Source of the DNA: Dendrobates tinctorius
Taxonomy: Eukaryota
Assembly (NCBI RefSeq): GCF_039654945.1
Contig: NW_027361682.1
Coordinates: 27,714,001-27,778,000 of the forward strand
Reading direction: 5' to 3'
Length of the DNA: 64,000 nucleotides
Of the stretch, positions 4,875-62,932 are shown one piece after another. The notes beneath the pieces are model-generated. The model was not told the DNA's origin. It searched no databases and saw only the letters and a program-made list of their open reading frames with translations. Numbering within the stretch: position 1 is the stretch's first letter; each line of letters begins with the position of its first letter. A program made the position numbers and the translations under genes.

Positions 4875-5177
4875 ATGGCGGCGGTGAGGCTGAATGAGGT
4901 GCGGGACCCCAGCGCCTTGTTTGAGGCGCACAGCGCGGAGGAGATCCGGGGACTGGAGAGGAAGGTGCGGGCGGAGATCGAGCAGAAGAAAGAAGAGCTG
5001 CGGCAGATGGTGGGGGAGCGATACCGGGACCTGATCGAGGCGGCGGACACCATAGGAGAGATGCGGAGGAGCGCGGGGCTGGTGGTGGAAGCGGTGCGGG
5101 GGATGGAGCGCTACTGCGGGGACCTGAGAGCCAAGCCCGGCCCGGCCGCGGGACAACGGGGAGGAGGTGCCGCACAG
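4875..5177 (+). CDS. COG1: COG1 coding exon 1
   Basis: ATG in AAACATGGCG; ends CAG|GTGAGA; Vps51/COG1 N-terminal coiled coil. Confidence 0.93.
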
Positions 5178-8100: not shown

Positions 8101-11100
8101 TTATTGATTGATGACCCATCCCGAGGGTAGGCCATCAATGTTTTCTGGTCAGCTGTTCCCGGTGTCGGCAGTGGCCGAAACTGCTCACTTGTGGAGCCGA
8201 GATCCATTTACTTGGCTTAACAGGACCCCCAGTCTCGTTATTGGCCCAGACCCCATGATTACTTGTAAATCCTATGAGAAAATGTTTGTTGGATAACCCC
8301 CTTTAAGAGTGGAAAATCCGTTTAAGAGCAAGGGTATGAGCGTGTATCTTATGCCGTTGTTGTATTTCCACCAGGTGCAATGAAGACATAAAATCTGGGA
8401 TTTCTGCACTGCTGGTCTACGTGAAGACCCTGAAGGGCCTGGCTGGTATCAGAGACGCCGTGTGGGAGCTGCTGACCAGCGACTCCATGAGCCAGAACTG
8501 GGAGAAGGTTTGTCAGCGACTACTGGACCATCCCATCCGGTTCTGGGAGGACATGATGCAGCAGCTATTCCTGGACCGACTGCAGGTCTGTCCTCGCTTT
8601 GGAGCTTATATATCCAGTCAGTAGAGACCATTTCCCAATTCCGAGGACCCTCATTAAAGGGGTTGTCCACTACTTTAAGAATTTTTATTAATGGTCAAAA
8701 GTCTAAAAAATAAATCTCTACTGGAACTGTGCCGCTCAGGCTTATGGCTGCCGGGGTCCCGTTTTCGGGGAAATGTCAGGTGATGGCTGTAGCCTTGACA
8801 TTCCTACTGAATAAGAAAAAACTCTCTTCTCAGCGGCCCAGTGCCCATAAGACAATGGTTGACCTATGCCATGTACCACAATGTCAGATGATGGCAGAAA
8901 ACAAGGATCGGGCATATTGGATTTCAATATGCCCAATCCTGTGTTATCATTCGAGATAAGCGACCACCTGAGGTGTCTGGGAGCTGCTTTTTCTTATACA
9001 CATGTATGGAGGGCCGCCTGTCGGCAGCTACGTATATGGACACCTTTAAAGGGCTATTGCCAACGCCAGCAGAGAAAGGGACGCACATGTGCATCCATTG
9101 CCTTTTAGAGCCCCATTGTCATGAGCAGTCGGACCCCCAGCCGCGTGTTGCCGACCCTGCGGATAGGGTGACAACTTGCACTAACTTTGTAATCTTGACA
9201 TTTTTTTTTTCCTCCTTGTTGCCCAGACGCTGATAAAAGAAGGACTAGAGTCGATCTCCTCGGAGTCGGTGCAGCTGCTGCTCTCCACCCTGCAGGACCT
9301 GGAGAAGAACCCGGACTCCCTGAAGCACATCCAACACGAAGGAAACATCTGCTCCTTCCTTTGGTCTGAAAGCCAAAGCGACCTTCCGCCAGACGCTGCC
9401 TGGATCAGCGTGGCAAACCGCGGCCCCCAGCGTAGGAGCGGCCTCTCCCTTAAAGCCCAGGCGGTCACTCCCTGCATCCAGAGCTTCTGCCAGGTCATAG
9501 ACTCCAAACTGAAGGTGAAACTGGAGGACTTGTTCTCCTACCTCCCGAGGGAGACGTCTGCCGGCGAGCAGCAGAACCAACCTCTTGGCGGCAAACCCTC
9601 GGCTTTCGATCGGTATGGGGATGCCCGCACGGTGCAAGAGATGTTATGCCACCACTGCCTCACGTGTATGCAGCACATCCAGGACTCGGTCAGGACACAG
9701 CTGAAATCTGCGGCAGATGCAGAGCCCGCAGATAACACTGCCATGTGCGGGCATACAGTGGGCAGGGTATTGTTCCTGGCAAGGTTGTGCCAGTCATTAA
9801 GCAAGCTTTGCCCTCATTTGAAGCAGTGCATCTTAGGAAAGTCCGGCGGCATCGAACATACGATACGGGAGGCTAAGACCACCAAGAAGTCCGGTAAAGG
9901 GAGGGCCGCCGACATGCCGCAAGTCCTCTGCAAGTGGCAGGAGCTGAAAGACCAACTCGTAAAACAGTCCCTGGATGCCTACTCCATCTGGAGCACCACC
10001 GTGGTAAAAGTAAGTGGTGGGAGGCAAAAGTGCTTTATAGATCACCATTATAATGACAGTGCCCACAATTCTGCAAATATCCGAGCTGAACTCTTAGGCT
10101 GGCTTCACATTTGCGGATGTCAGAGCTGCGAAGGGCTGCGTAGTTCCTCTGTGAAGCTCCGCCCACTGCCGCACCTCTTCCTTCAGCTCCGCCTACGTCA
10201 GCATGCATCCTGCGTACCTATCTTTAACATTGGGTATGCAGGCCGTGCGGATGTATGCGGATGCCTCCGTGTGCGTCGTTTTGACACTGGCGACCTGCGT
10301 CGAACTCAACATGTTGCATTTTGTTGCGGTCGCCGCATCGTCAAAACGACGCATACATAGGCATCCACATACATCTGCACGGCATGCGTACCCAATGTTA
10401 AAGATAGGTATGCAGGACGCTTGCAGGCTTAGGCGGAGCTGACCGGAGGAGGTGTGGCAGTGGGTGGAGCTTCACAGAGGAACTACACAGCCCTCTGCAG
10501 CTCTGCTGAACGCTAGTGTGAAACTAGCCTTACAGCAGCTCCTGCGCAGATCTTGCTTTAGTGGTTTTTCTTATTCTGGGACGTCATCTTCTGCCCCCTT
10601 GCATTGTAGAAGGTTTAGTGAGTAGCATTTCTCATTTGCACCTTTTTCCCACAGCACTTGGTACGTTCCTTCAAGAATACCTTGCTGCAGAGTGCGGCTG
10701 GATCAGCACTTGCTACCGCCACCCAGTGGGACGAAATAGAAATTCAGGAGGAAACGGAGGCGGGAAGCAGTGTCACCTCAAAGATTCGACTCCCTGGACA
10801 GGTGGGTAGTTTATTAGCACTGAAGCTGTTAACGTCGATCTTAAACCGAATTGGCACATTTATTAAGAGGCACGCCTATTGGTAAATTGGGGGCATCTTT
10901 AGCTATACTGGTGCCAGAAGATGAAATCTGTTATGAGGTGTAGATTGAGGCTCTAATTGCCCCAACTTCTGGCATCTACATGTCCGCTGAAGGCCCCACA
11001 CCTCCCTCTAGACACTGCTTAATTTTTCCATCACTAGAATATTTGTCTTATAATTCTACACCATAGAAATGGAGCCTTTATTTATTGTTGGCATGTTTAA

Positions 11101-32944: not shown

Positions 32945-35580
<2,636 letters not shown>

Positions 35581-40504: not shown

Positions 40505-40823
40505 TGTATGATTCTATGGCCCATAACAATCAGGGGGAACAAGCCCACCTGACATCCGTTCCACCTCATAAGGTGGCTGCCACATCTAGATGTCATTAGG
40601 GCTAATCCACGCAGCTGTATTACAGGCTCAATTCTCGACCTGACCCAAAACCTCATACGATTCCCTTTCCTTAAGTGAAAAGGGTAAACTAAGCTTGCAC
40701 AGCCATTCCTCGTCTCAAGATAGGTAGAGGACCCAGAGGTCAAATGTCTCCCGCAGCCCTTTATCCAATTTCTGACCCCTGTGGTTATAACCTCTAAACC
40801 TCATATTTTTGTTCCCTTCAGTG

Positions 40824-41868
40824 ATGAAAGATCCATCATCTCCAATGGATGTTTGCCCGTTTTGCGGGAAGGCTTTTAAGAGACTGAAATCCCATTTACC
40901 CCATTGTAAGATGGCTGAAAACAAAAACAAAGCTACAAGGCCAGACCCTGGAGACCAAAGTAGGACTGCCAAACAGGTGCCCATGAAAAGGACAGGCACA
41001 AGTTTGCCAAGCTTAGATAAACAGGACATGAAAGCAAAAGCGAAAAGTAAGACAGGACTTAAAATTCAAGTTCAACAAGACAAAACCATATCCTCACCCC
41101 AGACGACAGCAACAAAAGTGGGAAAAGTCACATCAGGAAATATGTTGACCCAGCAGAAAGCTGTATCAACCATCGATGAGTCCAAGAAACCTCTACAGAC
41201 AGCCATAAGGACAAGTCAAATGATTACCTTACCAAAAGATCAAGATCGACAGCTGGTGGCATTAGCAGAACCTATTATGCCAATCCAGCAGGCCGTTATA
41301 TTAAAGACCAATCTTGAGAGATCAGTACCAATTACTGTGGAAAGTCCAAGATCGGGCAACATGGAAACTGTGAGAGACCAAGTCAGTATTAAAAAGTTTG
41401 AAGGAGATTTGATACGATTATTTGTGCCCAATCGCATCTCAGAAAAAGACATCGTAGAGCGTTCAGATGGGGTATGGCCTCACAGACCGGTCTATTTGGA
41501 TCAAAATTTTGTTTCAAAGTTTCATTCAGGATCTTCCAAGGCTTTGATGGTCTTCGAGTGGCCTACTAACTTTCCTCAGGAAGGGGTTAAAACACAAATG
41601 CCAGGAATTGCCTCAGTTGGGTGCAATATAAAAGCTGAAATGCATGATATTAAAGCATTGGGGACTACCGGGAAGTCTATGGAGAACATGATGGACGTGT
41701 TATTCCCACCCAAGACTATGCAGATAGTCGATGGTCACTTAGGGATGCACTGGATTCCGCAGTTGTATCCCAATTATGTCCAACTGTGCATAGTTCCTGG
41801 AAGACAAGATCAATGGGATCCACTTGGTAGAGGAACAACGATGCCAGACCCAATTGGAAATCTACCTG
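40824..41868 (+). CDS. C17orf80: C17orf80 large coding exon
   Basis: Acceptor TTCAG|TG ATG; CPFC...H..C motif; HLGMHWIPQLYPNY motif near the end; donor CCTG|GTAGAG. Confidence 0.88.
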
Positions 41869-43231
41869 GTAGAGTACCACCATGGTTAGATTGCTTGGAT
41901 CCTACAAGGATCCCTCATTCCTTTTATGCTTTTTAGGTCATTTTTCTTCTCTCTATCCCTAGAAGAAGTTTCTAAGATTGCTCGAACAGAGTCCATTCTA
42001 GAAAACCAGTCTATATCCAAGCGCCTGATGGATGTCAGACTCGGGGAGCTTCCTCACTGGTTGGCCAACCATAGCTTTACACCAAAGAATCTTACAACTT
42101 TTATGGCAAATGGTGAGAGAGCAAGTTACTTTTTGTCCTGTGGAGGTGCTGCAGGAAAATTCAACACTTTTGGTCAGGTTCTTTCACGCATCAGTGGAAA
42201 GGTTTGGGTAACCCTTACTACAAAAAGGGATTGTCTAAAGTGGAGAACCTTTTTAAGTCAATGGTGGCACACCAGTCTTCCAAAAGCTGGAAGCCAAGGG
42301 GAATTTCCAAATTATTTAACATTGCTACCTAAGGGTTCTCTACCATCACCAAATCCATTTTGAATAATCTGTAATGTCTGAAAGCTTCCTTTGAAAGAGG
42401 ATATTTCACACAATAATCATTATGGTATATCATTAGGATAGGTCACAACTAGAGATGAACGAATAAATTAGAGTGGAATAGAATGGTACAAAGATCTTCA
42501 TTTCGCCAAATTCGATTGGGAGCATTCAGCAACATTTTGAAGTGTATGGGACCATCAAAAGATTCTGAAATGTTAATTTAGCCTGATCTGCTCATCTCTA
42601 TTCATAACATTCAGGTCAGTGGAGGTGTTGTAAAACCAGCGATTGAGGCTGTAGTTCTTTGAGTGAATTGTCAAGGAATTGAAAAATATAGCTGCTTTCT
42701 TCCAGAAACAGCGCCACTTCTGTCCACAGGTTTGGGAGTGATATGACACGTTATCCCAACTAGTCATCCATGGATACGTGTGCTGCCGTTTTTGAAAGAA
42801 AGCAACATTTTTCTAGTAGTATACGACCTCCATTAACCCCTTAGTGACAGAGCCAAGTTTGTACTTAATGACTAACCAATTTTTACAATTCTGACCACTG
42901 TGAGGTTATAGCTCTGGAACACTTCAACGGATCACACTTATTCTGAGAGTGTTTCTTTGTGACATTGTACTTCATGTTAGTTGTCAAATTTCTTTGATAT
43001 GACTTGCGTTTATTTATGAAAAAAACAAAAATTTGGCAAACATTTAGAAAATTTAGCAATTTTCAAACTTTTAATTTTTGTGCCCTTAAATCAGAGAGCC
43101 ATATCGCATAAAATTGTTAATAAATAACATTTCTTTACATCAACACACTTTTGGAAACATTATTTTTTTTTTGTTAGGACATTATAAGGGTTGACCAGCA
43201 ATTTCTCATTTTTCCAACAAAATTTACAAAA

Positions 43232-43265
<34 letters not shown>

Positions 43266-46200
43266 GGGACCACCTCACTTTTGGAGTTTGGGGGGGTCAG
43301 TATGACAGAAAATACCCAAAAGTGACACCATTCTAAAAACTGTACTCCTCAAGGTGGTCAAAACCACATTCAAGAAGGTTACTAACCCTTCAGGCGCTTC
43401 ACGAGAACTAAAGAAATATGGAAGGAAAAGAACATTTTACTTTTTTCACAAAAAATTTTTTCGACCCAAATGTTAATTTTCACAAGGGTAACAGAGAAAA
43501 TGGACCACAAAATTTATTATGCAATTTCTCCTGAGTACTCCGATAACCCGTATGTGGGGAAAAGCCACTGTTTGGGGGCATGGCATGGCTCAGAAGGTGG
43601 GAGCACCGTTTGACTTTGACTGCAAAATTGGCTGGAATCAGTGGCAGTCACCATGTCGCGTTTGGAGACCCCTGATGTACCTAAACAGTGGAACCCCCCC
43701 AATTCTAACTCCAACCCTAACACAGCCCTACCTCTGACCCTAATCATAACTATAATCACAATGCTAACCCCAACACCCCATCCGTATCCCCAACCCTAAT
43801 GGCAAAATGGAAAAAAAAAATTTTATTTTATTATCTTTACCTAACTAAGGGGGTGATAAAGGGGTTTTGAGTGTTTTTTTTTTTATTTTGATCACTGTGA
43901 TCAAAATGAACCAATAGGAAAAATCTATTGTTGCCGGATGTCAGCCAGCAGATCTCAGCAGGAGGAAGACGCCAGAGGGTCCAGGGATACCGGGGGGGGG
44001 GGCTCAGGGGACCCCACTTCGCGCTCCTCTGGTATGCTACATCATATTAGAGAACAGACAAATAAAAGTGAAATTGGACTTTTTTTTGGGCATCGCCAGT
44101 ATTCCGTGAATGAGTGTGATCACGAGACTGGGGACGGTAAAACCGACCCGAATCATGTTCTCCGGGGTCTCAGCTACCCCTGGTAGTCGAGATCCCAGAG
44201 ATTTTCTGACACTGGGGGCCCTATAACCTTATTTCTCAGCGCCGTTAAAAAGCAGCGCTGAGGAATAAGTACCCTTAACTACCGCCGTTAAAAGGCGTAT
44301 CGGCAGTTGTAAAGGGGTTAAGAGCAGTTCATTCATTCTCAGAGGTAGCCATGGTAGTTTGATCTGATTAGGTAGATGTGTCTTATCCTTGTGATAGACT
44401 AGAACTTTAACCCCTTAGTGACGGGGCCAATTTTTTAAATTCTGACCATTGTCAGTTTATATGGTGATAACTCTGGAACGCTTCAACAAATCCCATTGAT
44501 TTTGAGATTTTTTCGTGGCACATTATAATAATAATAAATTTAATAAAAAACAAATCTGAACTGAGAAAAGTAAGTTAATGTGTATGCACAATGTAAGCGC
44601 ATATTAACACATGACCATTAACCAGAGAAAACAAAAAGCAAAAAACACAAATCCTGAACTAAAAAGTAAAAAATGTATACTGCAAATAATGCATAAAGGT
44701 AATAATAAGGGTATTTAGTAAACAAAATTTTGATCAAAATAATGTACAAGCCATCCCGCCACGTCACGGCAACCCTTGTGGGACAGTCCCTACTCTAGTA
44801 TTTAAAACCTTTTCACTTGCCAAGTGGCATGAATGTGAACAAGGGTCGAGCGGCTGAACCACTAGTAACAGTTTAGGCCAGACTGGATGGCTTTCCCAGC
44901 TCAGAAAGAGGGAGGTCACACCCATATATGCACTGAATGCACAATGAAATGAATAAAAAACAAATCTGAACTGAGAAAAGTAAGTTAATGTGTATGCACA
45001 ATGTAAGTGCATATTAACACATGACCATTAACCAGAGAAAACAAAAAGCAAAAAACACAAATATCCTGAACTAAAAGTAAAAAATGTATACTGCAAATAA
45101 TGCATAAAGGTAATAATAATAATAAGGGTATACATAATTATGTTTACTAAATACCCTTATTATTATTACCTTTATGCATTATTTGCAGTATACATTTTTT
45201 ACTTTTTAGTTCAGGATATTTGTGTTTTTTGCTATTTGTTTTCTCTGGTTAATGGTCATGTGTTATTATGCACTTACATTGTGCATACACATTAACTTAC
45301 TTTTCTCAGTTCAGATTTGTTTTTTATTCATTTCATTGTGCATTCAGTGCATATATGGGTGTGACCGCCCTCTTTCTGAGCTGGGAAAGCCATCCAGTCT
45401 GGCCTAAACTGTTACTAGTGGTTCAGCCACTCGACCCTTGTTCACATTCACGCCACTTGGCAAGTGAAAAGGTTTTAAATACTAGAGTAGGGACTGTCCC
45501 ACAAGGGTTGCCGTGACGTGGCGGGATGGCTTGTACATTATTTTGATCAAAATTATGTTTACTAAATACCCTTATTATTATTACCTTTATGCATTATTTG
45601 CAGTATACATTTTTTACTTTTTAGTTCAGGATATTTGTGTTTTTTGTTTTCTCTAATAATAAATTTAGGTTGATCTGTTTTGTTTATTTATAAAAAATAT
45701 CAGAAATTTGACACACGTAAAAAAATTGCAATTTTCAAACTCTGAATGATTATCCCTTTAATCCAGATAGTCATACCACACAAAACATTAATCAATAACA
45801 TTTCCCACATGTCGGCTTTACATCAGCACCATTTTTAAAGCGCTACTTTATTTTGTTAGCCTTTTAAGAGGTTTAAAAATGTAGCAGTAGTTTTTCATTT
45901 TTTCAAGGAAATTTACAAAATTTATTTTTTGAAGGGACCTATCAATGTTTGAAGTGACTTTTGGGGTGCTATATATTGGGAAACCCCAAACATGATACCA
46001 CTTTAAAAACAGCACCCCCTGACACATTGAAAACTGCTGTCAGGTAGTTTATTAACCCTCAAGGTGATTTTCAGGAATTACTGCAAAGTGGTATAGCTGG
46101 AATGAAAAAGTGTTTGTTTACCACCTAAATGTCGCTAACTTCTGAACTGACCGCTTTAGCCGGGAGACTCCAAGGCCGCTATTTGGCCATGAAATGCTAT

Positions 46201-49200
46201 AGGCAAACATCTGGACTACACAATCATGATCTCACGTGTCAATTAGATTAAAGTGGAAGCCCCCACAATCTATTAACCATTTATTTGATGTAGTCACTTT
46301 TGACAGCAGCAACTAAGGGGTTAAATAGACATGGACAGTGTCAACACTGATCGTTTGTGATGCAGCAAGTTGTCAGCTATAGTGTACAGCAGACAGCTGC
46401 TGGATTATCACCTGTGTGGGAATGATATTCACTTATATCTGATTTCAGTTAAAAGACGTATTGGCTGTCATTAAGGGGTTAAACACATCCTGTCACTTGC
46501 TTCAAAAATTTAGTTAAATATCTTGTAAAAATCCCAAAAGCTCACCCGATACTGCAGCTCTTTTCCATTTTGTGATGCGTCACTCCGTTGAAGAGATATT
46601 CACACTTGTTTCTTCTGGAGTGCACTATGAGAAATCTCTGCTTTGCAGTACAACTGGGCGTTTCTGCAGTCTTCTCTTTGGGCATGTACTTTCACTGTTT
46701 CTTTCAGAAGTATCCAATCACGGCTCAGCATGGCCCGAGACTGCTAGGTCAGCTGTTGAGTTGTGACTGGCAGCATCTGGGAGGGAGGGGTGAAAGCAAA
46801 CACCCCCAGAAAAGACTGAAGAATCCCACAGTTGTACTGCAAAGCAGAGATTTCCCAGTGCGCTACATAAGCAACAAATGTGAATATCTCTGCGATGGGG
46901 CAACGCAGCACAAAACGGAAAACGGCATCAAAATCAGGGGAGTTCAGGGACTTTTACAAGAAATTTAATTGCATTTTTTGAGCAAGTGACAGGTGCTCTG
47001 TTAAGGGGTTGTTCAGAATGTTACCCAAGTGGTCCTTACTGTTCCTGAAGTGCTGATATCACCTCCATCGTTTGTGTGACCGCTGCAGTCAATCACTTTC
47101 GTCACTGGTCACATTAGCATATATGGTGGACGGGATGGTATTGCTGCGGGACTATCAGAACAGCATCTCTGAAAGGGCAAACTTTTAATTAGGCGGGTCA
47201 TTTTTTAAATTATTATTTTATATTCTGTTAACTAACCAGAGGACAATTTTGAAAAAAAAAAATCCCGGACTGCCCTTTATTGTAAGTTAAAGGAAATTTT
47301 TATTATGTTTCAGAGGATAAGGACAGTTTAGTTAACCCTTTTCTTTTTACATTTATCATTTATTTTACAACCACATGATTTTTTTCCAGCTTGGGAGTGC
47401 TACTACAACAAATACATCAATGTGAAGAAGGGCGGCGCAGGAGGGCTGACCATGCTTCTCGCGGGCTACTGCGTTCTCAGCTATTCCTGGAACTTCGACC
47501 ATATAAGTATGATTACCTCCATATAATCCTGAAGTTACCTTTTATGCCTGGCTTTGTGCCCTTTTTTTTACTACCCCATTTGCTACCGTTTTGTGTATAC
47601 AGCTCCTACATAGAACTATGCATCTCCAGGTCACACATCATTTCATCTGTTCCCTGAATGTTGGTAACGTACAGTCAGGAAACAGGGGATCATGTATGAA
47701 GGATCTGACTACAAAGGGTTTTGTTTGTAGTCTGTAACCATAGAAACACATCCATAACAGCTGTATACACAACACAGTGGAAAGGAACTGTCCATTTGGG
47801 GGTTATTTTTTTTTTTTACTTGAATTCATGTATCTTGGGCTGAAAATTATGCATGAAAGTGAAATAACCCTCTAGTGTTGTACTGTCTTTTGCTGGTTGC
47901 CGAATGAGTTAACTGAGAATCAGTCAGTGAGCTTGCTTTGATGGTTTCACAGAACAGTTTGTAACGCCTTTGTGCAGAGAAACTAAAGAGCCTGTAAAAG
48001 CCAAACGGTGCAAAATATTTAATGAAATTCAATTTAAAAAATTATTTTTAGTCCCAAATACATTTTTTTCTGGTTAAAAAAAGCCACAAAAACTGACAAT
48101 CCCTTCAACAATAATTACTACAAGGGTTGTCTAGGATTAGAAAAACCCAGCAGCCCTTTTCCAAAAGCCGTGGCCACCCTATCCATGGGTTTTTGTTTGG
48201 TATCGTAGCTCAGCCCCACTAAAGTGAATGGGACCGAGATGCAAAGCCGCCATCCCAACCTGTGGCTAGGGTGGTGCTGTTATTTGGAAAAGGTGGCCAC
48301 TTTAATAACTGCGATCACCAAAAAGTGCCAGCGCGTGCGTCTGGAGACAGCCACATGTTAGCGCCATATTACGCCTGACAGTAATAATGACGCCCATCCG
48401 GAGATATTCGGGTTTTGCTCACCTGAAGCAATAGAGGGATCAGCCCCATAGGACCATGTAAGGCAAAGCCTGGGGTGATCTGGATATTAACGTTCAGACA
48501 GGATATTTGCTTTAAAAGCCACATTACCATGGAGATCACTTAATGCCCAGCACGGGCCGCTCCGGTAAATCACCTTTCATTGCGGACCATTATACCGCAC
48601 CAGCTGGAAGGAAAACATTAACTCCACGCATAGCAATGTATTCCTGGAGCCCTAAAAAGGCAATACATCTCATCCAGCACGAAAGACGGAATTAACTGGA
48701 GACTGCAGAATAAATCAGAGCGTGAGCGCTCCTTCCAGATATTTATATTCCAGGCTGCGTTAGAAAGTTCGGGGGAAAATGCATTTTTTATTTTTTTTTT
48801 TTAATTTCTCAAACTCTGCAAAATTGCTACAGCTTTAGAGCGATTTTAGAATCCGTGATTTTGCAAGAATGTCAATTTAATATATTGTGCAGCAAGTAAA
48901 CTAGTTTTTTTCATCTGTCCTGTTGCTGCTCTTCCTCTAAGGAAAGTGTCAGACTGCCATGGGTGTGGATGAGGATCGCAACGCAATGCTCGGACAGGCT
49001 GGCAGCTGCATAGAAATACATGCTGTCTCGCTCTGGTCAGGAGAGCGGCCGGCCAGTCCGAGCATTGCGTTGCGTCCTCGTCCAAGTTACAAGACCTGTC
49101 CGGCTCTTCTCCAGTGCTTTGATATCTTGTTAATACTTAAATGATACTTTCCTGTGACACCGGTATTAGAAAAGTTGTGTTTTTAATCCATTTGACCCCG

Positions 49201-51369: not shown

Positions 51370-54300
51370 CTGCATGGTCCAAAGCAAAAAGGGAATTAGA
51401 AACCTAGAAGAATGTGCTGCTGAACAGGGCAGGTACTTTATCCTTACTTTGAAACACGTGACTTGTTCCAGGGGTCTCAGACCCCCACAGACATTTTCCT
51501 GCATCTTTCTAAAGCGCTCGTGCATCATGGTTAAGACAGTCAGGTGTGAGAGATGCGGCAGCTCCAGAATGAGGGCTGGGGGCTTCAACGTGGGCTCAGG
51601 ATCACAGGGGAGTGAAGGGACCTGGACCCTCTGAGGTGCAGCAGCATTCTGTAAGACGAACCAGGGTCAACAAACCAAAGCCTGAAGGCACTAAAGTGAA
51701 GTATGCCCCATTTTATACTTCTTGTAGAGAGTTGGGCAAATTTTTACATGCAGTCAGTTACTTATTCTGTACTGATCGTGTTATATCCTGTATTATACTC
51801 CAGAACTGCACTCACTATTCTGCTGGTGCAGTCACTGTCTACATACATTACATTACTTATCCTGTACTGATCCGGAGTTACATCCTGTATTATACTCCAG
51901 AACTGCACTCATTATTCTGCTGGTGCAGTCACCGTGTACATACATTACATTACTGATCCTGTACTGATCCGGAGTTACATCCTCTATTATACTCCAGAGC
52001 TGCACTCACTATTCTGCTGGTGCAGTCACTGTCTACATACATTACATTACTTATCCTGTACTGATCCCGAGTTACATCCTGTATTATACTCCAGAACTGC
52101 AGTCACTATTCTGCTGGTGCAGTCACTGTCTACATACATTACATTATTTATCCTGTACTGATCCTGAGTTATATCCTGTATTATACTCCAGAGCTGCACT
52201 CACTAGTCTGCTGGTGCAGTCACTGTGTACATACATTACTTATCCTGTAATGATCTGGAGTTACATCCTGTATTATACTTCAGAGCTGCACTCACTATTC
52301 AGATGGTGCAGTCACTGTGTACATACATTACTGATCCTGAATTGCATCCTGTATTACACTCCAGAGCTGCACTCACTATTCTGCTGGTGGAGTCACTGTG
52401 TACATACATTACATTACTTATCCTGTACTGATCCTGAGTTACATCCTGTATTATGTTGAATCTATTTTTATTGAAAGATCAAGTAGACAAAGAAAACATA
52501 CAAAATTATGAAAGTTATACACCCATCTGAGCAATATTACAGTATAAACAATCATTTATAAATCCGGTACGACTGCTAAAATGAAGTCTCGTAGCTTCCC
52601 AGTGGGACGTATATTGAGCAGACACAAACACACCGCCACTGAGCAGGTAACCGGGTGGTTGTCGCTAAATCGGTTAACCTAGCCATATAGGCTACATCAA
52701 ACATTTTGCTTATATAAAATGGAACAGACTGGAGAGTAAATTTTCCTCCTATTATCTGAGTTCTTAGCAACATAGATGGGTAGGTATCTTAAAACAATAG
52801 TCATAATCATTCATAGTGCATTTCACATGTATCAGCAGGGTGTATTATAGAGAAAGAAAGGATAATATGAAAGAGAAAGGGGAAAGAACACAAGAAAAAT
52901 TAGAATGGAACATTTAAGAGTAATAGGGGAGGGGGAGGGAGACGGGCACCAAACTCCCGAACCGGCCCCTAAGAAGCCTCCTCAACCAGTTGAGACAACC
53001 CAGTGGTTTCTTTAAATAAGATCCAGGGATGCCAGATGCGAATCAAGCGGGTGTTGTCCCACTCCATCTCAGCCATCAGCTCCTCCATCCGGAAGATATC
53101 TGCAAATTCCGACACCCATTCCGCCATTGTTGGCGGTATTGCTACTCGCCAAAGGCGTGGGATTACCATACGTGCTGCAGTGACACAAAACCTGAGAAGA
53201 CTCCGTTTCTGGGCCGATATGGAGCCCGGAAGGATCGAGAGGATGGCAACTTGCGGGGAAGGGAGAACAACATCTCCAGTAATTTGATAAGCCGAGAACA
53301 CCTTCTTCCAAAAGGGTTGTATAGCGGAGCACTGCCACCATATGTGGTATAGTGTGGCTCTCTCGGTTCCACACCGCCAACAAGTGTCCGCCACCAACGG
53401 AAAAATAGACTACAATCTAACGGGGGACAAATACCATCTGGTTAGTATCTTAAAATTTTTCTCCTGTGCGCCCCCGGCCTGGGACATTTTGTGTGTGAAT
53501 AGGTAAGCTTTGTTAAGATCCTCTACCGAGAATCTACAGCCCATCTCCTCCTTCCATGCCCGAATGTAACTCGGAATCTCCTCCGAGTCCCCAATATGAA
53601 ACTCCTTATATAGGAGAGAAATCAGATGAGGAGGGTCCTGTTGCTGCAATAAATTTTCCATTCATGGGGGGAGTTGCGGCCCGCCATATGTCTCTGGACA
53701 AACGACCTCATCTGATTATATTCCATCCAGGAGAGCCCCCTATTGGGAGATTGTTCTTGTAGAGTCTCCAAAGATGGAATATCTCCTTCCACCAGTACCT
53801 GTCCCAAGCGTAAGTCAGAGCTAATGTGTCAGCCTAAAAAACGATCCCTGAGGCGACCCGGAGGAAAGTCCGGGTTGCCAAAAATTGGTGTCAACGGATT
53901 CAGGACACTAATCAATTTCTTCTTAATTTTTATACGTTTCCAGAGTCGTAATGTCTCTTGTGCCAAAAAGCCCGTGGATCCCTCAGAGCCGCCTGTAGTA
54001 TGATCATAGCATCGGATCCAAGGAAGGTGTCGCAAGGGAATGTCAAAGGATGTCTGTTCCAATTGAACCCATTGTTTAGAGCAGTGGCCATACTGCCAGT
54101 CGAGTAGGCGCGCTAGTGTGGAGGCCTTATGGTAAAGTTCTAAGTCAGGGAGGCCCGCGCCCCCTCTGGATTTCGGAGTGGTCAGACTGGTATATTTTAA
54201 ACGGGGCCTAGGAGCCTGCCAAACAAATCGGACCAATGCGGATCTGATGGTCTGGAAGAATGCCCTCGGCGGTGTAATCGGGACCGCCTGAAACAAATAC

Positions 54301-57300
54301 AAAAACCTGGGAAGAACATCCAACTTAAAGGAGTTCATCCTACCAAACCATGAAATATTCTTTCGTCCGTACTCTCTCAAACGCTTCAGGGTCGATTCCA
54401 GAAGGGGTAAATAGTTGAGTTTGTAAAGGTCGGTCATGTCGGCAGGAATTTGAACGCCCAAATATTGGATAGCTCCATTTTGCCACCGAAAGGGGAAATT
54501 CTCCATTATTCTCGTAAGTTCTTCTGGTCCTAAGGATATATTAAGGGCTTTGGTTTTCTGAAAATTAATTTTAAAATTACTGACTGCACCGTATTTTTTA
54601 AATTCCACCATCAGCGACGGAAGGGAAATGTGTGGCTGAGATACATACAGTAGGAGGTCATCCGCGTAAAGAGAGACCTTATAATGAACTCTATCCACCC
54701 ATAGGCCGTGCACACTGGGATTCCCCCTAATTGCTACCGCCAAATGTTCCATGACCACAGTGTATAAAGTATAAAAGGGGCGATAGAGGGCATCCCTGTT
54801 GTGTGCCGTTCCCGATAGCTATAGGGTCTGACAATGCTCCATCGACCCTAACTCTCGCCGAAGGGCTGGAGTACAGAGCCACAATCTTTTGTAGGAAGCG
54901 ACTCCCCAGGCCTATTTGCCGCGGGGCCGAGAACATGAATCCCCAGTGTACCCGGTCAAAGGCTTTCTCCGCGTCGATCGACAGCAGCGCCATCGGTTTA
55001 TGTTTTGATTTAGCATGTGCAGTCAGAATGAGGGTTTTATTTATCCCGTCCCTCGCCTCCCTCCCCCGTACAAACCCCACCTGATCCGAGTGCACAACCA
55101 AAGGCAGAAGGGGAGCTAATCGGTTAGCCAAAATTTTTGCGCAAAGTTTCACATCTACATTAATAAGTGATATTGGGCGATAATTAGTTACTATCGTAGG
55201 ATCCCTTCCCGGTTTCAGCATCACTGTAATGAAAGCCTCTAAAGGCCCTTTTACATTTAGCGATGCACCAGCGATCCGACCAGCGATCCCACCCGGTCAG
55301 GATCGCTGGTGCATCGCTAAATGATCGCTAGTGAGCTTTCATACAGAAAGACCTCACAGCGATGCAGCAGCGACGCAGCGCACGATACTTACCTTTCACA
55401 CCCAGCGATGAAGACGTCCTCCCGCCCGCCTCCACGCGTCGCTGGACGTCACAGCAGGAAGTCTCAGCAGGAAGCGCCCGACGAGAAATGGAGCCGGACA
55501 TTCTCGCGCGATCAGCGATGGACAGCGGGGGAGCCGGTCGCTGGTAAGTATCACACATAGCGATATCGCTAGCAATATCGCTATAACGTCACAAAACCAG
55601 TGACGTTTTAGCGATATTGCTAGCGATATCGCTTAGTGTAAAACCCCCTTAAGGATTGTGGGACAAATGGGGCATCGGCTGCGATGGAGTTAAAGACCTG
55701 TGTCATAGTGGGGTTAAGTTGCTCTCAAAATGTCTTGTAGAAATGAGGGGAAAAGCCCTCCGGTCCTGGGCTCTTACCAGCTGGAGTGTTCCGAATGACC
55801 TCATCAATCTCCTCCGTTGTGAAATCAGTTTCTAGTGGTTCTGTTAGATCTGTAGTCAATGTCGGGAGGGCGGTATCATGTATGTACGACTCAATTTGTG
55901 GTTGGGGGTCCAGAGACGGCTGAGAGGGGTCACCTCCTTTAATATTGTACAATGCATGGTAATAGCGCTGCATTATGTCTAGGATTTCGGTTGGGTTCGA
56001 CGTCACCTGACCACGATGCTTCTGAAGGGACGGTATGTATGTGGTCCGACAACGTGGATGTAAAAATCTAGATGGCATACTCCACATTTATTAGCTTGGC
56101 CATATAAAAGACTTTTAAAGCGATTTCTATGAATACGGGACTTCTCATTTAACAGAGATTTCAGGTCGTCCCTACATTTGATCAAGCCAGTCTGCGTCTC
56201 CGCTCTTAAGTCATTCTTATGGTTCGTCTCCAGAATTAATACTTTTTCCTTAAGATCCCAAATTTCCTTGTTTTTCAATTGCTTCAAGCGGGAACCATGT
56301 TTAATAAGCACCCTTCTAAAGACACATTTAAGAGTTTCCCATTTGATAGGCATAGCGGCGTCATCATGTGCGTGATCTTGTAAAAATGTCACTATGGTAG
56401 TTTTAACGTCAGCCATACATGTGGGGTCTTTTAAAAGATTATCGTTCAGTCTCCACATCCACTGTCGCGTTCCCGAATCAGGGGGGCTGATGTCCAAAAA
56501 GATTGGAGCATGATCCGACCACAGGAAACTTCCAATAGACGGTTTCGGATTCCAAGCCAACGCGCAGTGGCTAAGAAGAAAAATCTATTCTGCCATATGA
56601 GTTATGTGACGTGGAGAAGAACGTGTAATCCTTCGTGGTGGGGTTAAGGAGCCTCCCGACATCGGTGAGTTGTAAGTCGTGAAGGTCTCTTTTTAAAGAG
56701 GTCATCTGTTGAAGAGAGAGCTAAGACCTTGCCGCCGTCGAGTCCAATGTCGGGTTAAGAGTCAGATTGAAGTCTCCCCCCAGTATAACAACCTCTTCAG
56801 CAAAATCAGCTACAATCTTCAAAAAGGACCGAACAGCTCGAATTTGATCTCGGCCGGAAGCGTACCAACCAGCTATAGTATATGTTGTTGAAAAAATCTG
56901 GATCTTCAAGATCATGTACCTCCCTTCCGTATCAATTAGTGTGTCCAGTATAGTATGTTGGAGGGATTTGTGGAGTGAAATGGAAACACCTCGGGATCGT
57001 GAGTCCGGGTTGGCGCTGTGGAACCAAGACGTGTAATAGCGATTGGGTATATTAGGAACATGTCCAATCTTAAAATGTGTCTCTTGTAATATCAATACAT
57101 TAACTTTTTTCTTGTGCATACCATATAAGATATGCGACCGTTTCTGTGGTGTGTTGAAGCCCCTCACATTTAAGGAGCCCAATGTGATCCTCTGTGTGGC
57201 AGTCCTACCAGGCATCGTGTTTGCAGACTGGGATCGAGGGACTCAAGCTTCCTCCACAAGGATGGGTCCGCTCCGGGGTCCAGCGCCCGCTGTAGGGAAG

Positions 57301-60300
57301 GGGGAAGGTTAATGGGGTGGGGATAGGTTAGATACAGAGAATAAACAAAGAGTTAAGAATTAGAAAAGCAGAAGATAACAATACAGTCATGGCCAAAAGT
57401 ATTGACACCCCTGCAATTCTGTCAGATAATACTCAGTTTCTTCCTGAAAATGATTGCAAACACAAATTCTTTGGTATTATTATCTTCATTTAATTTGTCT
57501 TAAATGAAAAAACACTAAAAGAATTGTCCTAAAGCCAAATTGGATATAATTCCACACCAAACATAACAAAGAGGGTGGACAAAAGTATTGGCACTGTTTG
57601 AAAAATCATGTGATGCTTCTCTAATTTGTGTAATTAACAGCACCTGTAACTTACCTGTGGCACCTAACAGGTGTTGGCAATAACTAAATCACACTTGCAG
57701 CCAGTTGACATGGATTAAAGTTGACTCAACCTCTGTCCTGTGTCCTTGTGTGTACCACATTGAGCATGGAGAAAAGAAAGAAGACCAAAGAACTGTCTGA
57801 GGACTTGAGAAACCAAATTGTGAGGAAGCATGAGCAATCTCAAGGCTACAAGTCCATCTCCAAAGACCTGAATGTTCCTGTGTCTACCGTGCGCAGCGTC
57901 ATCAAGAAGTTTAAAGCCCATGGCACTGTGGCTAACCTCCCTAGATGTGGCCGGAAAAGAAAAATTGACAAGAGATTTCAACGCAAGATTGTGCGGATGT
58001 TGGATAAAGAACCTCCACTAACATCCAAACAAGTTCAAGCTGCCCTGCAGTCCGAGGGTACAACGGTGTCAATCCGTACTATCCGTCGGCGTCTGAATGA
58101 AAAGGGACTGTATGGTAGGAGACCCAGGAAGACTCCACTTCTTACCCCGAGACATAAAAAAGCGAGGCTGGAGTTTGCCAAAACTTACCTGAAAAAGCGT
58201 AAAACATTTTGGAAGAATGTTCTCTGGTCAGATGAGACAAAAGTAGAGCTTTTAGGGCAAAAGCATCAACATAGAATTTACAGGAGAAAAAAGAGGCATT
58301 CAAAGAAAAAAACACGGTCCCTACAGTCAAACATGGTGGAGGTTCCCTGATGTTTTGAGGTTGCTTTGCTGCCTCTGGCACTGGACTGCTTGACCGTGTG
58401 CATGGCATTATGAAGTCAGAAGACTACCAACAAATTTTGCAGCATAATTTAGGGCCCAGTGTGAGAAAGCTGGGTCTACCTCAGAGGTCATGGGTCTTCC
58501 AGCAGGACAATAACCCAAAACACACTTCAAAAAGCACTAGAAAATGGTTTGAGAGAAAGCACTGGAGACTTCTAAGGTGGCCAGCAATGAGTCCAGACCT
58601 GAATCCCATAGAACACCTGTGGAGAGATCTAAAAATGGCAGTTTGGAGAAGGCACCCTTCAAATATCAGGGACCTGGAGTAGTTTGCCAAAGAAGAATGG
58701 TCTAAAATTCCAGCAGAGCATTGTAAGAAACTCATTGATGGTTACCAGAAGCGGTTGGTCGCAGTTATTTTGGCTAAAGGTTGTGCAACCAAGTATTAGG
58801 CTGAGGGTGCCAATACTTTTGTCCGGCCCATTTTTGGAGTTTTGTGTGAAATGATCAATGTTTTGCTTTTTGCTTCATTCTCTTTTGTGTTTTTTCATTT
58901 AAGACGAATTAAATGAAGATAATAATACCAAAGAATTTGTGTTTGCAATCATTTTCAGGAAGAAACTGAATATTATCTGACAGAATTGCAGGGGTGTCAA
59001 TACTTTTGGCCATGACTGTATAATTAACAAAGCGGGTGTGATTAAGCACACACCCACAGACAACGTGAAACCAGGTGGAGGTATGCACTAATTGCTGTAC
59101 GCCTCAATGGCAGGACAGCACCTCCAAGGGGGGTAAGTGTACGGCAAGAAGAGAAATGGAGACCCGTCTCCCCCGGTCCCCAACCTTATAATGAAATAAA
59201 CTTCACTTGCCCCTGAAACAAGAAATCCAACCCCTTAAGATTATATATACCATTTCTAACAAACCCATGAGTCGTTGGCGTATCACGTTTCATGTTCAGC
59301 TTCAGTATCGTTAAAACCGAAAATGTTAAAGACGTCACAGCCATTAAATCTAGAACACCATAAACTTTCTAGAATCATGACTTCCATTAAACGGAGCCCC
59401 ATAAGGTGGCAAATCATCTAGGTATCTGGAAATATTCAGCATGAAGACACAGCCATCCAAGAGTGAGCGGGGGGGGGGAGAGAGGGGAAAGTGGAAAGAA
59501 GTGGAAAGGAAAAGAAATTTGACCGATCACATAATCTGATTTAACCCTCCGTTCCTCATTGCTAATAAAGCTGATCCCTCATCTCCACCCCCCATCCACC
59601 CATGCAGAAAATCTCTCCTAAATCACAAAACTCTGCCATCAGTCATTTTCTCCTTCTCCCGGATGTGCCCGCCCACGTCTATTGGGCCGCCGCTGTCGTT
59701 GAGGAAGCTGTCCTCCACGAGGGTCGTCCATTCTGTAAAAGGACGGTAGGGGTGGCCAGTCGAGGACGTCCACCTCATGTAGATCCAGGGCAGCTGAAAA
59801 TGCTGGGATTCCGCTGGGGTGACTCAGGTGATGTACTCTGCCCCTCTTCTGAACCCGGAGGCAGAACGGAAACCCCCAGGTATAGGGAAGATCTTTTTGT
59901 CGCAGTTCCTCCAAGAGTGGGCGAAGGGCTCTACGTCTCTGCAAAGTCCATCTGGATAGATCTGGTAGGAGCTGTATGCGGGTATCCAAGTGCTTAATGG
60001 GTCCTGCTCCCCTGGCCGCTCCCATGACTGCGTCTTTAAGTTGGTACTTATGGACCCGACAGATCACATCTCTCGGTGGGTCTTGATTATTAGGACGCGG
60101 GCCCAGAGCCCTATGAGCACGATCTAACTCCAGTGGGGTATCTTGGGGTCTATCCAATACCGAATTGAAGATGCCTCTCAAGGTGGTGTTTAACTCCTGA
60201 GGAGGGATAGCTTCGGGTAATCCCTGTACTCTTATATTATTCCTGCGTCCCCTATTTTCAGAATCGTCCAGCATCTCTGCCAGAGTCTGCAGCTGTCTAG

Positions 60301-62932
60301 CCTGGGCAGCCACAGCAGCTTCTTGAGCCTCTATTCTGTCATTCAGGGAAGTCAGGAGCTGGTCATGAGATTCAACCTTCTCTCCGCATTGTTGAATATC
60401 ATCCTTAAGTATAGAAAGTTCCGCTTTGTAAGAAGATTCCAAGCGAACAATATATTGTTCCATATCTTGTTTCGTCGGTATGTCTTTTATCTTATTATAC
60501 AGTAATGTGAAATCAACTCCTATGGGTACTACAGGTTCTCCTGCCAGGAGAGGGGCCACAGGCCCGCATTGTGATGTTATGGACGTGACTAATTGAGGAG
60601 TAGGTGGGGGAGGTATGCCAGACGGCAAGTCATCTTGATGAGCATTTATTATTATGGGTTGATTAAGCTGCCCTCTCAGCTTGGGGTCGGCTCCGTCCTG
60701 AGTTATATTGTCTCCTGTGATGGCAAGGTTGCTGTCAGGAGGCTTAGTATTAAGCCCCCGTTAAACACTGCGATATCGCTAGCAATATCGCTGTAAAGTC
60801 ACCGATTTTGTGACGTTGCAGCGATATTGCTAGCGATATCGCTGCATGTGATACTTACCTCCGACCGGCTCCCCCGCTGGTTATCGCTGATCGCGCGAGA
60901 AGCTGTTGGACCATTCCTCGTCGTCAGCTTCCTGCGGCGCTTCCTACTGTGACGATGAGCGACGCGTGGAGCCGGGCAGGAGGACGCAGGATCGCCGCGT
61001 CTGACAGGTAAGAAGCGATCCCCGTCCCCAGCGATGTCGCTGGTGAGATCTGCCTGTGTGGCAGCTCACTAGCGACCACCTAGCGATGCACCAGCGATCC
61101 TGACCGCGTCATATTGCTGGTTGGGATCGCTGGTGAGTCGCTAAGTGTAACGGTACCCTTAGTATTATTTCCCTGGGAGAGTGGCGCAGGGTATGTCAGG
61201 GTGGCCCTCCCTGGGCCTGCATTGGGTACAGCAGTGTGAGGTCTCTTCGGCCTGTCTGCGGGGTCTCCCTTTAAGGCATATGTTTCCAGGGGCTCAGCGG
61301 TGCTATTACCGCTATTAGCAGACTGCCTCGCTTCTTTCACCTCCATCAAAGTCGCCCCACTAGATCCTGGGGAGGTCCCCTCTCTCTGTCTTCTCTCCCT
61401 CCACGCTGTTCCCCCATCTTCGGTACCTTTCTCCCTGCCGACGGCAGGGCCGATTGTCCTCTGCGCTCCGCTTCCAACATGGCGCCTGCACCTGCAGCCT
61501 TCTTCCCCGCTCCCGCGATGTAGCGGGAAATGTTGTGGGGAGCTTTCTCGGGTGCCGCGGAGCCTGAAGGCGCACTCCCCCGGCTTCTCCTTGTGGACAT
61601 TGGGGTGTTGGACATCAGGGTAAGTCCCTTGTTGTGGTGGTTCCCGGTGCTGAAGCGGGAGCTCTCCAGGACGCGTCCTAACTCCTCGCCGGCCATGCCA
61701 CGCCCCTACATCCTGTATTATACTCCAGAGCTGAACTCACTTTTCTGCTGGTGCAGTCACTGTGTACATACATTACTTATCCTGTACTGATCCTGAGTTA
61801 CATCCTGTATTATACTCCAGAGCTGCACTCACTATTCTGCTGGTACAGTCATTGTGTACACGCATTGCATTACTTATCCTGTACTGATCCTGAGTTACAT
61901 CCTGTATTATACTCCAGAGCTGCACTCACTATTCTGCTGGTGCAGTCACTGTGTATATATATTACATTACTGATCCTGAGTTACATTCTGTATTATACTC
62001 CAGAGATGCACTCACTATTCTGCTGGTAGAGTCACTGTGTACATACATTACTTATCCTGTACTGATCCTGAGTTACATTCTGTATTATACTCCAGAGCTG
62101 CACTCACTATTCTGCTGGTGAAGTCACTGTGTACATACATTACATTACTTATCCTGTACTGATCCTGAGTTACATTCTGTATTAGGCTATGTGCACACTC
62201 TGCGGTTTTGGCCGCTGCGGATCTGCAGCAGTTCTGCAGACAGTGTGCAGAACAATGTAAGTTTATGTGATTTACAATCTGCTGTGCACATGCTGCGGAT
62301 TTTTAACTGTGGAAAAGTTGCGGTTTTGAATCCGCAGAAAGAAAATGACATGTCAATTCTTTTCTGCGGATACTGCTGCGGTTTACCATCTCCTCCACTG
62401 TAGAGGTGATAAACCGCAGGCCAATCCGCAGGTCATTTTACCTGCGATTCCGCAGATACAAATCCGCAGACCAATCCGCAGCATGTGCACATAGCCTTAT
62501 ACTCCAGAGCTGCACTCACTATTCTGCTGCTAGTGGAATCCCTGCCTACTGAATACATTACTTTTCCTAAATGACATCCTGTATTGTACTCCTGAGCTAC
62601 AATCTTAATTCAGTTAGCATTACAAATTACTAACCTTTATATGGTCTGGACTGTAGATTATCAAGTCAACTTTTGGACTGGAAAACATATAAACATAACA
62701 GATGATTGTTATTTGGGACCCCGATGAGGGGGGAGGGGACCACATACACAAGTAAAACACTGGGCCTGTAGCGCTCCCTTATTGACCTGTAGACAGGTAG
62801 CGGTTTCCACTGGAGTGCGTGGGAAGCCGACAACTTACTGGACGTATTTACAGCTTGGACCTTCTGGGCAGAAACCCACCAGGTAGTTGGTGCACATGAC
62901 TCTGCGGGTGTGTCTGTGCTTACAGGCTGGAC
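51301..62932 (-). CDS. CPSF4L: CPSF4-like (CPSF30 paralog), 3' four exons; 5' exons outside the window
   Basis: complement(join(51301-51369,51448-51648,62635-62677,62839-62932)): [32 protein letters not shown]|[14 protein letters not shown]|NAAAPQ...[10 protein letters not shown]|[26 protein letters not shown] finger plus CCHC knuckle; position next to C17orf80 is that of CPSF4L. Confidence 0.85.
51448..51648 (-). CDS. CPSF4L: CPSF4L penultimate exon
   Basis: Ends [10 protein letters not shown]|GTAAGG; acceptor TCTTACAG. Confidence 0.85.
51750..52454. repeat. ~97-bp satellite array, left part
   Basis: Same unit as 14856-16882; continues at 61707-62530 after the L1. Confidence 0.92.
52969..57215 (-). 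pseudogene. L1 ORF2 (endonuclease-RT), frameshifted and MITE-interrupted
   Basis: Seven partial ORFs with collinear EN, RT and C-terminal cysteine motifs. Confidence 0.9.
55243..55649. mobile_element. PIF/Harbinger-like MITE in L1 ORF2
   Basis: TAA TSD; removal restores ...PQSL|[11 protein letters not shown]. Confidence 0.8.
57384..59018 (+). mobile_element. Tc1 transposon copy 2 (same family as 33292-34928), in the L1 inter-ORF spacer
   Basis: TA|CAGTCATGGCC...GGCCATGACTG|TA. Transposase 57766-58799 has a frameshift near 58290 and stops near 58356 and 58680. Confidence 0.95.
59639..60628 (-). pseudogene. L1 ORF1 core (coiled coil, RRM, CTD)
   Basis: ORF track protein with L1 ORF1 motifs; N-terminal part continues with frameshifts and a MITE up to about 61600-61696. 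Confidence 0.85.
60753..61159. mobile_element. MITE in L1 ORF1 (relative of the 55243-55649 MITE, opposite orientation)
   Basis: Shared CGATATCGCTAGCAATATCGCT and CAGCGATCC repeats. Confidence 0.75.
61707..62530. repeat. ~97-bp satellite array, right part, with MITE 62185-62496
   Basis: Same unit; MITE GGCTATGTGCAC...GTGCACATAGCC with TTA TSD. Confidence 0.9.
62635..62677 (-). CDS. CPSF4L: CPSF4L small internal exon
   Basis: TTTTCCAG|T CCA AAA...ATA AAG|GTTAGT; phase 2 to 0 fits both neighbours. Confidence 0.7.
62839..62932 (-). CDS. CPSF4L: CPSF4L CCCH zinc-finger exon
   Basis: [29 protein letters not shown], close to CPSF4 ZF4 end and ZF5. Confidence 0.93.

What the first reader, a model, noticed from the sequence alone, without database searches (positions are those of the whole stretch)
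44542..45653. TSD-flanked, non-coding 410-bp unit in partial-tandem plus inverted arrangement with a highly structured core: candidate retrozyme/Penelope-like RNA with a non-canonical ribozyme
Seen: about 1.45 units forward (44542-45131), then about 1.25 units inverted (45137-45653). Both copies end at the same unit position at the centre (ACATAATT) but have different outer ends, and a 13-bp TSD TAATAATAAATTT flanks the whole. A GC-richer core of about 180 nt has several interleaved complementary pairs (AAGCCATCC/GGATGGCTT, CAACCCTTGT/ACAAGGGTCG, CGCCAC/GTGGC, GGGAC/GTCCC, CACTT/AAGTG), implying a pseudoknotted fold. No credible coding ORF. Known: longer-than-unit tandem copies and inverted partners are typical of Penelope-like elements and retrozymes, which normally carry hammerhead ribozymes. 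I could not find a CTGAnGA...GAAA core on either strand. Inference: a retroposed circular or concatemeric RNA whose fixed end may be set by a different or unknown self-cleaving motif.
Basis: partly seen in the sequence, partly recalled or inferred. Interest (0 to 1): 0.7.

Follow-up and report, generated by a model that had tools for sequence, protein, structure and literature searches.

The report
Hammerhead-less Penelope-hitchhiking tandem repeat
This is one copy of a young, protein-less 415-base jumping repeat found at very many places in this animal genome; its ends carry the marks left by Penelope-type retrotransposons, whose enzyme it likely borrows, and it lacks the self-cutting hammerhead RNA of known animal retrozymes, so it likely spreads without cutting itself.

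Summary
The layout is real: two back-to-back arms of a 415-bp non-coding unit inside a 13-bp target duplication. The family is large and young (560 exact hits of one 28-mer; 11,662 hits of a 23-mer). Across 103 loci the outer ends are fixed at two sites (138 of 147 arms) and the centre is random 5' truncation; 37 of 44 inverted copies use one site per arm, and 38 of 44 have 13-16-bp duplications. Autonomous Neptune-type Penelope elements of the same genome show this signature. No hammerhead core is present on either strand in three subfamilies and no 5' ends pile up at a cut site. The core has a few compensatory base changes and weakly resembles a decayed hammerhead. No partner element was found in 120 Penelope loci. 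Verdict: a non-autonomous Penelope-type element, retrozyme-like but not a retrozyme by definition; a new ribozyme is not excluded (about 8%). The scan noted this kind of insertion before on other DNA, including another hammerhead-less family in this genome (e1-9892980).

The parts
44529..44541 (.). left copy of the 13-bp target-site duplication (14 bp if the next A is counted)
   Evidence: empty site in other copies of the host repeat
44542..45131 (-). left arm, 1.44 units; its 3' end (44542) is the second fixed start site, unit position 192; its 5' end is truncated at unit position 15
45132..45143 (.). palindromic head-to-head junction of the two 5'-truncated arms; not a conserved position in the family
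45137..45653 (+). right arm, 1.25 units; full unit 45137-45551; its 3' end (45653) is the first fixed start site, unit position about 109, after a 7-nt deletion
45654..45666 (.). right copy of the target-site duplication
45225..45250 (+). U-rich tract holding fixed 3' end 1 (unit 95-125; 82 of 147 arms end here)
45259..45291 (+). predicted hairpin between the two start sites (unit 123-155), found in all three subfamily folds, one compensatory change
45306..45383 (+). predicted multi-branch domain around fixed 3' end 2 (closing helix unit 170-180 with 237-247, enclosing the U-rich tract with end 2 at 45328 and two small hairpins); predicted independently in all three subfamilies
45424..45526 (+). 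GC-richer core; candidate helices 45424-45426/45494-45496, 45433-45438/45504-45509, 45452-45454/45459-45461, 45510-45512/45520-45522; the first two cross (possible pseudoknot)
45485..45512 (+). hammerhead-like relic (helix II-like GGA/TCC and spacing), without the catalytic CUGANGA and GAAA blocks
44406..46483 (.). host repeat with 17-bp terminal inverted repeats (MITE-like) into which the element inserted

Best explanation
This is a non-autonomous, protein-less Penelope-type retroelement whose multi-unit RNA is likely copied into the genome in trans by the enzyme of a Neptune-type Penelope element, likely without self-cleavage. Steps: (1, inferred) the U-rich strand is transcribed as more than one unit. 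(2, inferred from the ends) the partner's GIY-YIG endonuclease nicks both target strands 13-16 bp apart, preferring a C just outside the duplication on one side. (3, ends shown, enzyme inferred) each nick primes reverse transcription at an internal U-rich site, one at unit position ~110 and the other at ~192, each just 5' of a conserved hairpin; slippage sometimes repeats the first few bases. (4, shown as a pattern) each cDNA runs back for 0.1-8 units and stops at a variable place. (5, inferred) the two cDNAs are joined head-to-head, giving the inverted layout; if one aborts, a single arm results. The core is likely a decayed hammerhead region refolded into a structure kept for enzyme binding or RNA stability. 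Units were likely multiplied from a one-unit template at times (circle or repeated template jumps; not resolved).
For: Copy number and youth. Two fixed 3' ends in 138 of 147 arms, one per arm in 37 of 44 inverted loci, 13-16-bp duplications in 38 of 44, scattered 5' ends (103 of 114 loci, 11 complex or cut loci dropped). Same signature in autonomous RT+GIY-YIG families A and B of this genome, and two internal start sites, tails and inverted 5'-truncated copies are described for Penelope-like elements (PMC11167929; PMC8557442; PMC3846280). C at -1 in 35 of 41 target sites, also in 4 of 6 simple A/B sites. No hammerhead block conserved in three subfamilies. Hammerhead cleavage is dispensable for insertion in vitro (PMC11167929) and absent from Naiad and most Chlamys elements, which have non-autonomous multi-copy derivatives (PMC8557442). 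Several Neptune-like families here keep the hammerhead scaffold with an altered core. The unit's best hammerhead-profile hit lies at the same place in all three subfamilies (3/200, 3/200 and 37/200 shuffles as high). 18 near-private variants are shared by all covering units of a locus.
Against: No autonomous partner shares sequence with the unit among 120 Penelope loci, a small sample of tens of thousands of candidates. The -3/-2 target letters differ from those of families A and B. The relic test was designed after seeing the resemblance, scores 10 against 29 for a true hammerhead, and was not significant in a first version (6/60, 13/60, 3/60). No RNA-editing asymmetry supports the RNA step or strand. 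Six variants are shared by only some units of a locus and 100 by single units, so a one-unit template is not general. Lack of self-cleavage is argued from sequence only.
Confidence: 0.8

Rival explanations
1. The core is a new kind of self-cleaving ribozyme that has replaced the hammerhead and makes a unit-length circular RNA, which the Penelope enzyme copies by rolling circle.
For: The core lies where Neptune elements keep their ribozyme (about 150 nt before end 1, against 114 and 131 nt in families A and B). It is the best conserved part between subfamilies ~75% alike. Two clean compensatory changes, one weaker, and several wobble-preserving changes; two helices cross (38 cells changed on both sides against 15.6 shuffled, 0 of 500). 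Variants shared by all units of an array fit a monomer template.
Against: Only about three independent events; pairs with a double change 6 against 5.7 shuffled (265 of 500); the structure was drawn from the same sequences; RNAalifold finds only one hairpin; several alternative pairings are equally conserved; core folding energy is ordinary; no Rfam ribozyme at E<10; no pile-up of 5' ends; the youngest, most active subfamily has weakened the crossing helix.
Confidence: 0.08
2. The relic is a very degenerate hammerhead that still cuts, as a dimer or only when the Penelope protein is bound, so the element is an ordinary retrozyme.
For: Positional and weak sequence likeness to Neptune hammerheads; the anole element's hammerhead cuts only with protein (PMC11167929); covariant cores are known (PMC4209133).
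Against: No pairing 3-8 core, no conserved GAAA and no helix I next to the core in any subfamily; the predicted cut site (unit 373/374) has 1 nearby 5' end among 147 arms; the strand that should form helix I pairs with its own downstream partner with a compensatory change.
Confidence: 0.07
3. A DNA-level repeat (satellite or miniature inverted-repeat transposon) amplified by unequal crossing-over or cut-and-paste.
For: Tandem arrays up to 8 units and inverted outer ends; some variants run through neighbouring units only.
Against: The two outer ends are different unit positions, many copies have one arm only, one side is truncated at random, 3' ends carry slippage repeats, and duplications are 13-16 bp, all as in the autonomous Penelope families.
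Confidence: 0.02

Closest known systems
Metazoan non-LTR retrozymes (PMC7229834; bioRxiv 10.64898/2026.07.22.740005)
   Same: Non-coding tandem unit in the described size range (150-450 bp), low GC, long target duplications, likely mobilised by Penelope-like elements.
   Different: No type I hammerhead in the unit, which is the defining feature; the preprint's pipeline requires hammerheads in two consecutive units and would not list this family. Circular RNA not tested.
EN+ Penelope-like elements, Neptune and Penelope/Poseidon clades (PMC11167929, PMC8557442, PMC3846280)
   Same: Partial tandems, inverted 5'-truncated copy, two internal start sites giving a tail at one end only, AT-rich targets.
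   Different: No reading frame; start sites 82 nt apart (30-40 nt in the papers, about 100-110 nt in Neptune families A and B here); no sequence match to any pLTR sampled.
Non-autonomous Chlamys elements such as MRC1, and Naiads (PMC8557442)
   Same: Penelope-type mobility and multi-copy head-to-tail insertions without a canonical hammerhead.
   Different: Those are algal or invertebrate, N-terminal-endonuclease clades and usually match their partner at the 3' end; here the host is a vertebrate and no partner match was found.
Non-circularly permuted hammerheads SGC, CSG, GCS (PMC10085705)
   Same: Pseudoknotted topology is a property of these forms, and the core here may have crossing helices.
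   Different: They keep the CUGAnGA and GAAA blocks; these are missing or not conserved here on both strands.

Membership tests
Metazoan non-LTR retrozyme | short non-coding unit in tandem copies | tested here: met
   415-bp unit, arms up to 8.2 units, median 1.5; no Pfam match for the only ATG frame
Metazoan non-LTR retrozyme | type I hammerhead (CUGANGA or covariant core, GAAA, NUH, helices I-II) in each unit | tested here: not met
   only a weak relic
Metazoan non-LTR retrozyme | target-site duplication longer than 4 bp | tested here: met
   13-16 bp in 38 of 44 inverted loci
Metazoan non-LTR retrozyme | expressed as linear and circular monomer RNA; self-cleavage | not testable with these tools
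   no holder on record as RNA and only contigs available
Penelope-like element insertion (non-autonomous) | two fixed internal 3' ends, tail at one end only | tested here: met
   138 of 147 arms at two sites; 37 of 44 inverted loci use one of each
Penelope-like element insertion (non-autonomous) | 5' truncation with partial tandem and inverted head-to-head copy | tested here: met
Penelope-like element insertion (non-autonomous) | sequence shared with the pLTR of an autonomous partner | tested here: inconclusive
   none in 120 Penelope loci, a small sample of the families present
Autonomous Penelope-like element | RT plus GIY-YIG reading frame | tested here: not met
Non-circularly permuted hammerhead | blocks C (CUGAnGA), G (GAAA) and S present in any order | tested here: not met
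   no block C; GAAA not conserved across subfamilies
Other known small ribozymes (HDV-like, twister, pistol, hatchet, hairpin) | match to the Rfam covariance models | tested here: not met
   no ribozyme family at E<=10 in the window region or at E<=1 in F1b and F2 loci
tRNA-derived SINE | tRNA-like head | tested here: not met

The most novel reading that the evidence does not exclude
The conserved, possibly pseudoknotted core is a new self-cleaving ribozyme fold, rebuilt on the ruins of a Penelope hammerhead, that makes a 415-nt circular RNA copied by a Penelope enzyme: the first animal retrozyme with a non-hammerhead ribozyme.
Probability: 0.08. Interest if true: 0.85.

Novelty: new variant of a known kind. 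Interest (0 to 1): 0.4.

Why it matters
It shows a retrozyme-like family thriving through at least four subfamily waves with no recognisable hammerhead, which bears on the open question of whether the ribozyme of Penelope elements and retrozymes is needed for mobility or merely rides along. The 415-nt unit is also a minimal natural substrate: two start sites with a conserved fold around them, used one per strand in 37 of 44 inverted insertions, which makes the two-site, two-strand priming model directly testable. Such families are invisible to hammerhead-based surveys. If the core cleaves, it would be a new ribozyme class.

Tried and rejected
Rfam scans: no ribozyme or other credible family. 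Canonical, covariant and permuted hammerhead cores on both strands: none conserved. HDV-like, twister, pistol, SECIS and RNase P/MRP resemblances were considered from recalled consensus features and dropped, since topology or conserved bases did not fit and Rfam gave no hit. Partner search: GIY-YIG family search, two protein searches, 120 Penelope loci compared by BLAST and HMM: only insertions of the element into or beside Penelope DNA (L279, L311). Same-strand hits 3-4 kb apart (L234, L235) held no Penelope frame. A loose-end motif from organism B had 0 hits in G000. Sequencing runs: no RNA holder listed; contigs cannot show ends, strand or level. RNA-editing scars: no significant strand asymmetry in 68 young loci (A>G 15, T>C 42, p 0.13). 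Fixed 5' end: rejected. Exon-plus-intron unit: acceptor-like stretches exist but no GTRAG donor on the sense strand of F1y or F1b; no splice scoring was run. The helix-permutation test favoured the sense strand (24 helices against 4.3 expected, 0 of 150; antisense 1 against 1.4) but its null destroys local conservation blocks, so I give it little weight. The bacterial promoter scan is not relevant to this host. PMC5785218 on Penelope hammerhead variants was not held, so its variant list could not be checked.

Full report
1. The observation. The window copy consists of a left arm (44542-45131) and an inverted right arm (45137-45653) of one repeat unit, between two copies of a 13-bp duplication. 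I number the unit from 45137 on the plus strand (415 bp, to 45551). It sits inside a host repeat with 17-bp terminal inverted repeats, 44406-46483; contigs from other copies of that host join its two flanks without the element and show the target once, so the duplication is real. The unit has no credible reading frame, no tRNA and no Rfam match of note. The core is not unusually stable: z -1.42 and -0.53 on the two strands; whole circular units of three subfamilies fold at z -2.2, -1.5 and -2.5 on the U-rich strand and about -1.2 on the other (25 shuffles each).

2. The family. The window lies in G000 (6.36 Gb, 830 contigs; an earlier AI note of the scan calls the host a frog; I did not identify it). 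A DNA search gave 191 matches from 40 of 621 candidates scored, mostly 97-99% identical and in tandem. One core 28-mer has 560 exact hits, a 23-mer 11,662 hits at up to two mismatches with 0 for the reversed control. Older layers exist: F1-old (about 88-95%), F1b (82-90%; 3,567 hits of its motif) and F2 (about 75-79% over alignable parts). Public contigs of two coded organisms hold the unit; none is on record as RNA.

3. End map. I analysed 114 loci chosen by three searches and dropped 11 (9 complex, 1 cut by the locus edge, 1 split by a later insertion), leaving 103 loci and 147 arms. The 3' (outer) ends fall at unit 95-125 in 82 arms and 170-205 in 56; 9 lie elsewhere. Of 44 inverted loci, 37 have one end of each class, and 38 have a 13-16-bp duplication. 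The inner ends scatter over the unit; the commonest position (365) holds 5 of 147, and the set is biased towards late positions by its query. There is a mild excess at 181-195 (13 of 147, about 5 expected), that is at the second start site. Several ends of class 2 carry repeated copies of the last few bases (6 of 41 by a strict pattern), as expected from slippage at initiation. A C precedes the duplication on the end-1 side in 35 of 41 sites against 31% of non-T background letters. The window copy is typical: end 2 on the left, end 1 on the right. Its central palindrome is one chance outcome of 5' truncation and joining.

4. Comparison with Penelope elements of the same genome. A GIY-YIG search led to intact RT plus GIY-YIG frames (families A and B) with the cysteine linker that PMC8557442 gives for Neptune. 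Their copies end at two sites about 114 and 225 nt (A) or 131 and 233 nt (B) after the hammerhead position, inverted pairs mostly use one of each, and duplications of 12-17 bp were found in 6 of 10 pairs examined (one further pair gave 25 bp, three none). Their target sites share the C at -1 in 4 of those 6 but differ at -3/-2. This matches the literature: two adjacent internal start sites that explain the tail (PMC11167929, parts 1-2 of 4 read); partial tandems, an inverted 5'-truncated copy and a tail at one end only (PMC8557442, passages; PMC3846280, passages). No partner sharing sequence with the unit was found in 120 Penelope loci; the genome holds tens of thousands of candidates, so this is a thin sample.

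5. Is there a ribozyme? No CUGANGA, UUGANAA or AUGANUA core is conserved on either strand in the three subfamily consensus sequences, and GAAA is not conserved; this also excludes the permuted hammerheads of PMC10085705 (passages). Unit 349-376 resembles the helix II-to-cut-site part of Neptune hammerheads and lies at a similar distance from end 1. A profile from 18 Neptune hammerheads picks this spot as best hit in all three subfamilies, at 3, 3 and 37 of 200 shuffles (score 10, 10 and 4.5; true hammerhead 29); an earlier 9-family version gave 6, 13 and 3 of 60 and picked another place in F1b. The test was post hoc. Notably, nine sampled Neptune-like pLTRs of this genome themselves keep helix II, GAAA-like and palindrome parts around an altered core, while others are canonical.

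6. Conserved structure. On 63 distinct core copies, a four-helix model is 90.0% paired (shuffled 88.6), with 38 cells changed on both sides (15.6; 0 of 500), but only 6 pairs with such a change (5.7; 265 of 500). The clean events are two hairpin pairs (C-G to U-A by way of U-G; G-C to A-U) and a weaker one in the crossing helix; the long helix changes only through G-U wobbles, which fits the U-rich strand as the RNA. The model was drawn from these sequences, the copies are related and decayed, RNAalifold keeps one hairpin only, and rival pairings are equally conserved. Both start sites lie in unpaired U-rich tracts 11-13 nt before a hairpin, in line with the need for downstream sequence in the anole element (PMC11167929).

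7. Template. Among near-private substitutions in arrays, 18 are in all covering units of a locus, 6 in some, 100 in one (variants listed). The first class points to occasional amplification from a single unit; the second (for example the same change in the last full unit of both arms of L034) points to linear multi-unit templates or later duplication. Circle against template jumping is not resolved. No editing asymmetry was found.

8. What is known. It works like a metazoan retrozyme (PMC7229834, passages; PMC4209133, parts 1-2 of 4; review PMC6765202, passages) but fails the hammerhead criterion, so I do not file it as one. It is a non-autonomous Penelope-type element. Six full-text searches listed no paper on a hammerhead-less vertebrate family of this kind; the library lacks most subscription journals and repeat databases were not available, so it may already be catalogued. 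The scan's own notes have no look-alike by sequence but describe the same insertion pattern in other genomes and another hammerhead-less family in this one; these are unchecked AI notes.

9. Verdict. Observation partly confirmed; interpretation partly supported. New variant of a known kind, interest 0.4. The bold reading, a new ribozyme in the core, stays open at about 8% and can be settled by one in vitro cleavage assay.

Noticed in passing
L107:4690-4740 (G000:C139), also L101, L104-L106, L108: Neptune-like family A carries, just after its stop codon and a T-run and inside the terminal repeat, a ~50-nt stretch matching the 5' Alu domain of SRP (7SL) RNA (Rfam RF00017, E 0.0046, 24.5 bits, below the gathering score of 70). 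It may recruit SRP9/14 and ribosomes as Alu RNA does (recalled). One literature search listed nothing on this.
   Followed up: partly
L074, L075, L078, L083, L087, L094, L095, L096, L099: Nine Neptune-like pLTRs keep the hammerhead scaffold but have altered cores (for example AUGAUUA, UAGAAUA, AGUNUAA), including families A and B with intact frames, whereas L281-L346 families are canonical. Suggests repeated loss of catalysis in active lineages.
   Followed up: partly
   Followed up: no
L005/L033, L125, L128, L135, L262, L311: The element is inserted in or beside Penelope sequences at several loci; whether this exceeds the genome's high Penelope density was not tested.
   Followed up: no
window 44406-46483: High-copy host repeat with 17-bp terminal inverted repeats beginning TTAACCCC (MITE-like), with further such ends at 44307-44321 and 46312-46325.
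   Followed up: partly
window 4638-5663, 9185-10360, 40791-41936 (+): Long frames that look like exons of COG1 and of a C17orf80-like gene (names recalled; the two frames scanned had no Pfam match at E<=0.01). The element probably lies in an intron or just downstream of the latter.
   Followed up: no
window 33511-34293, 57709-58350, 53829-54818, 59639-60760 (-): Remnants resembling Tc1 transposases and L1 ORF2/ORF1 (labels recalled).
   Followed up: no
unit positions 181-195 across loci: 13 of 147 arms have their 5' end at the second start site (about 5 expected), as if the cDNA begun at site 1 often stops where a second enzyme has started on the same RNA; T-rich microhomology is an alternative.
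   Followed up: partly
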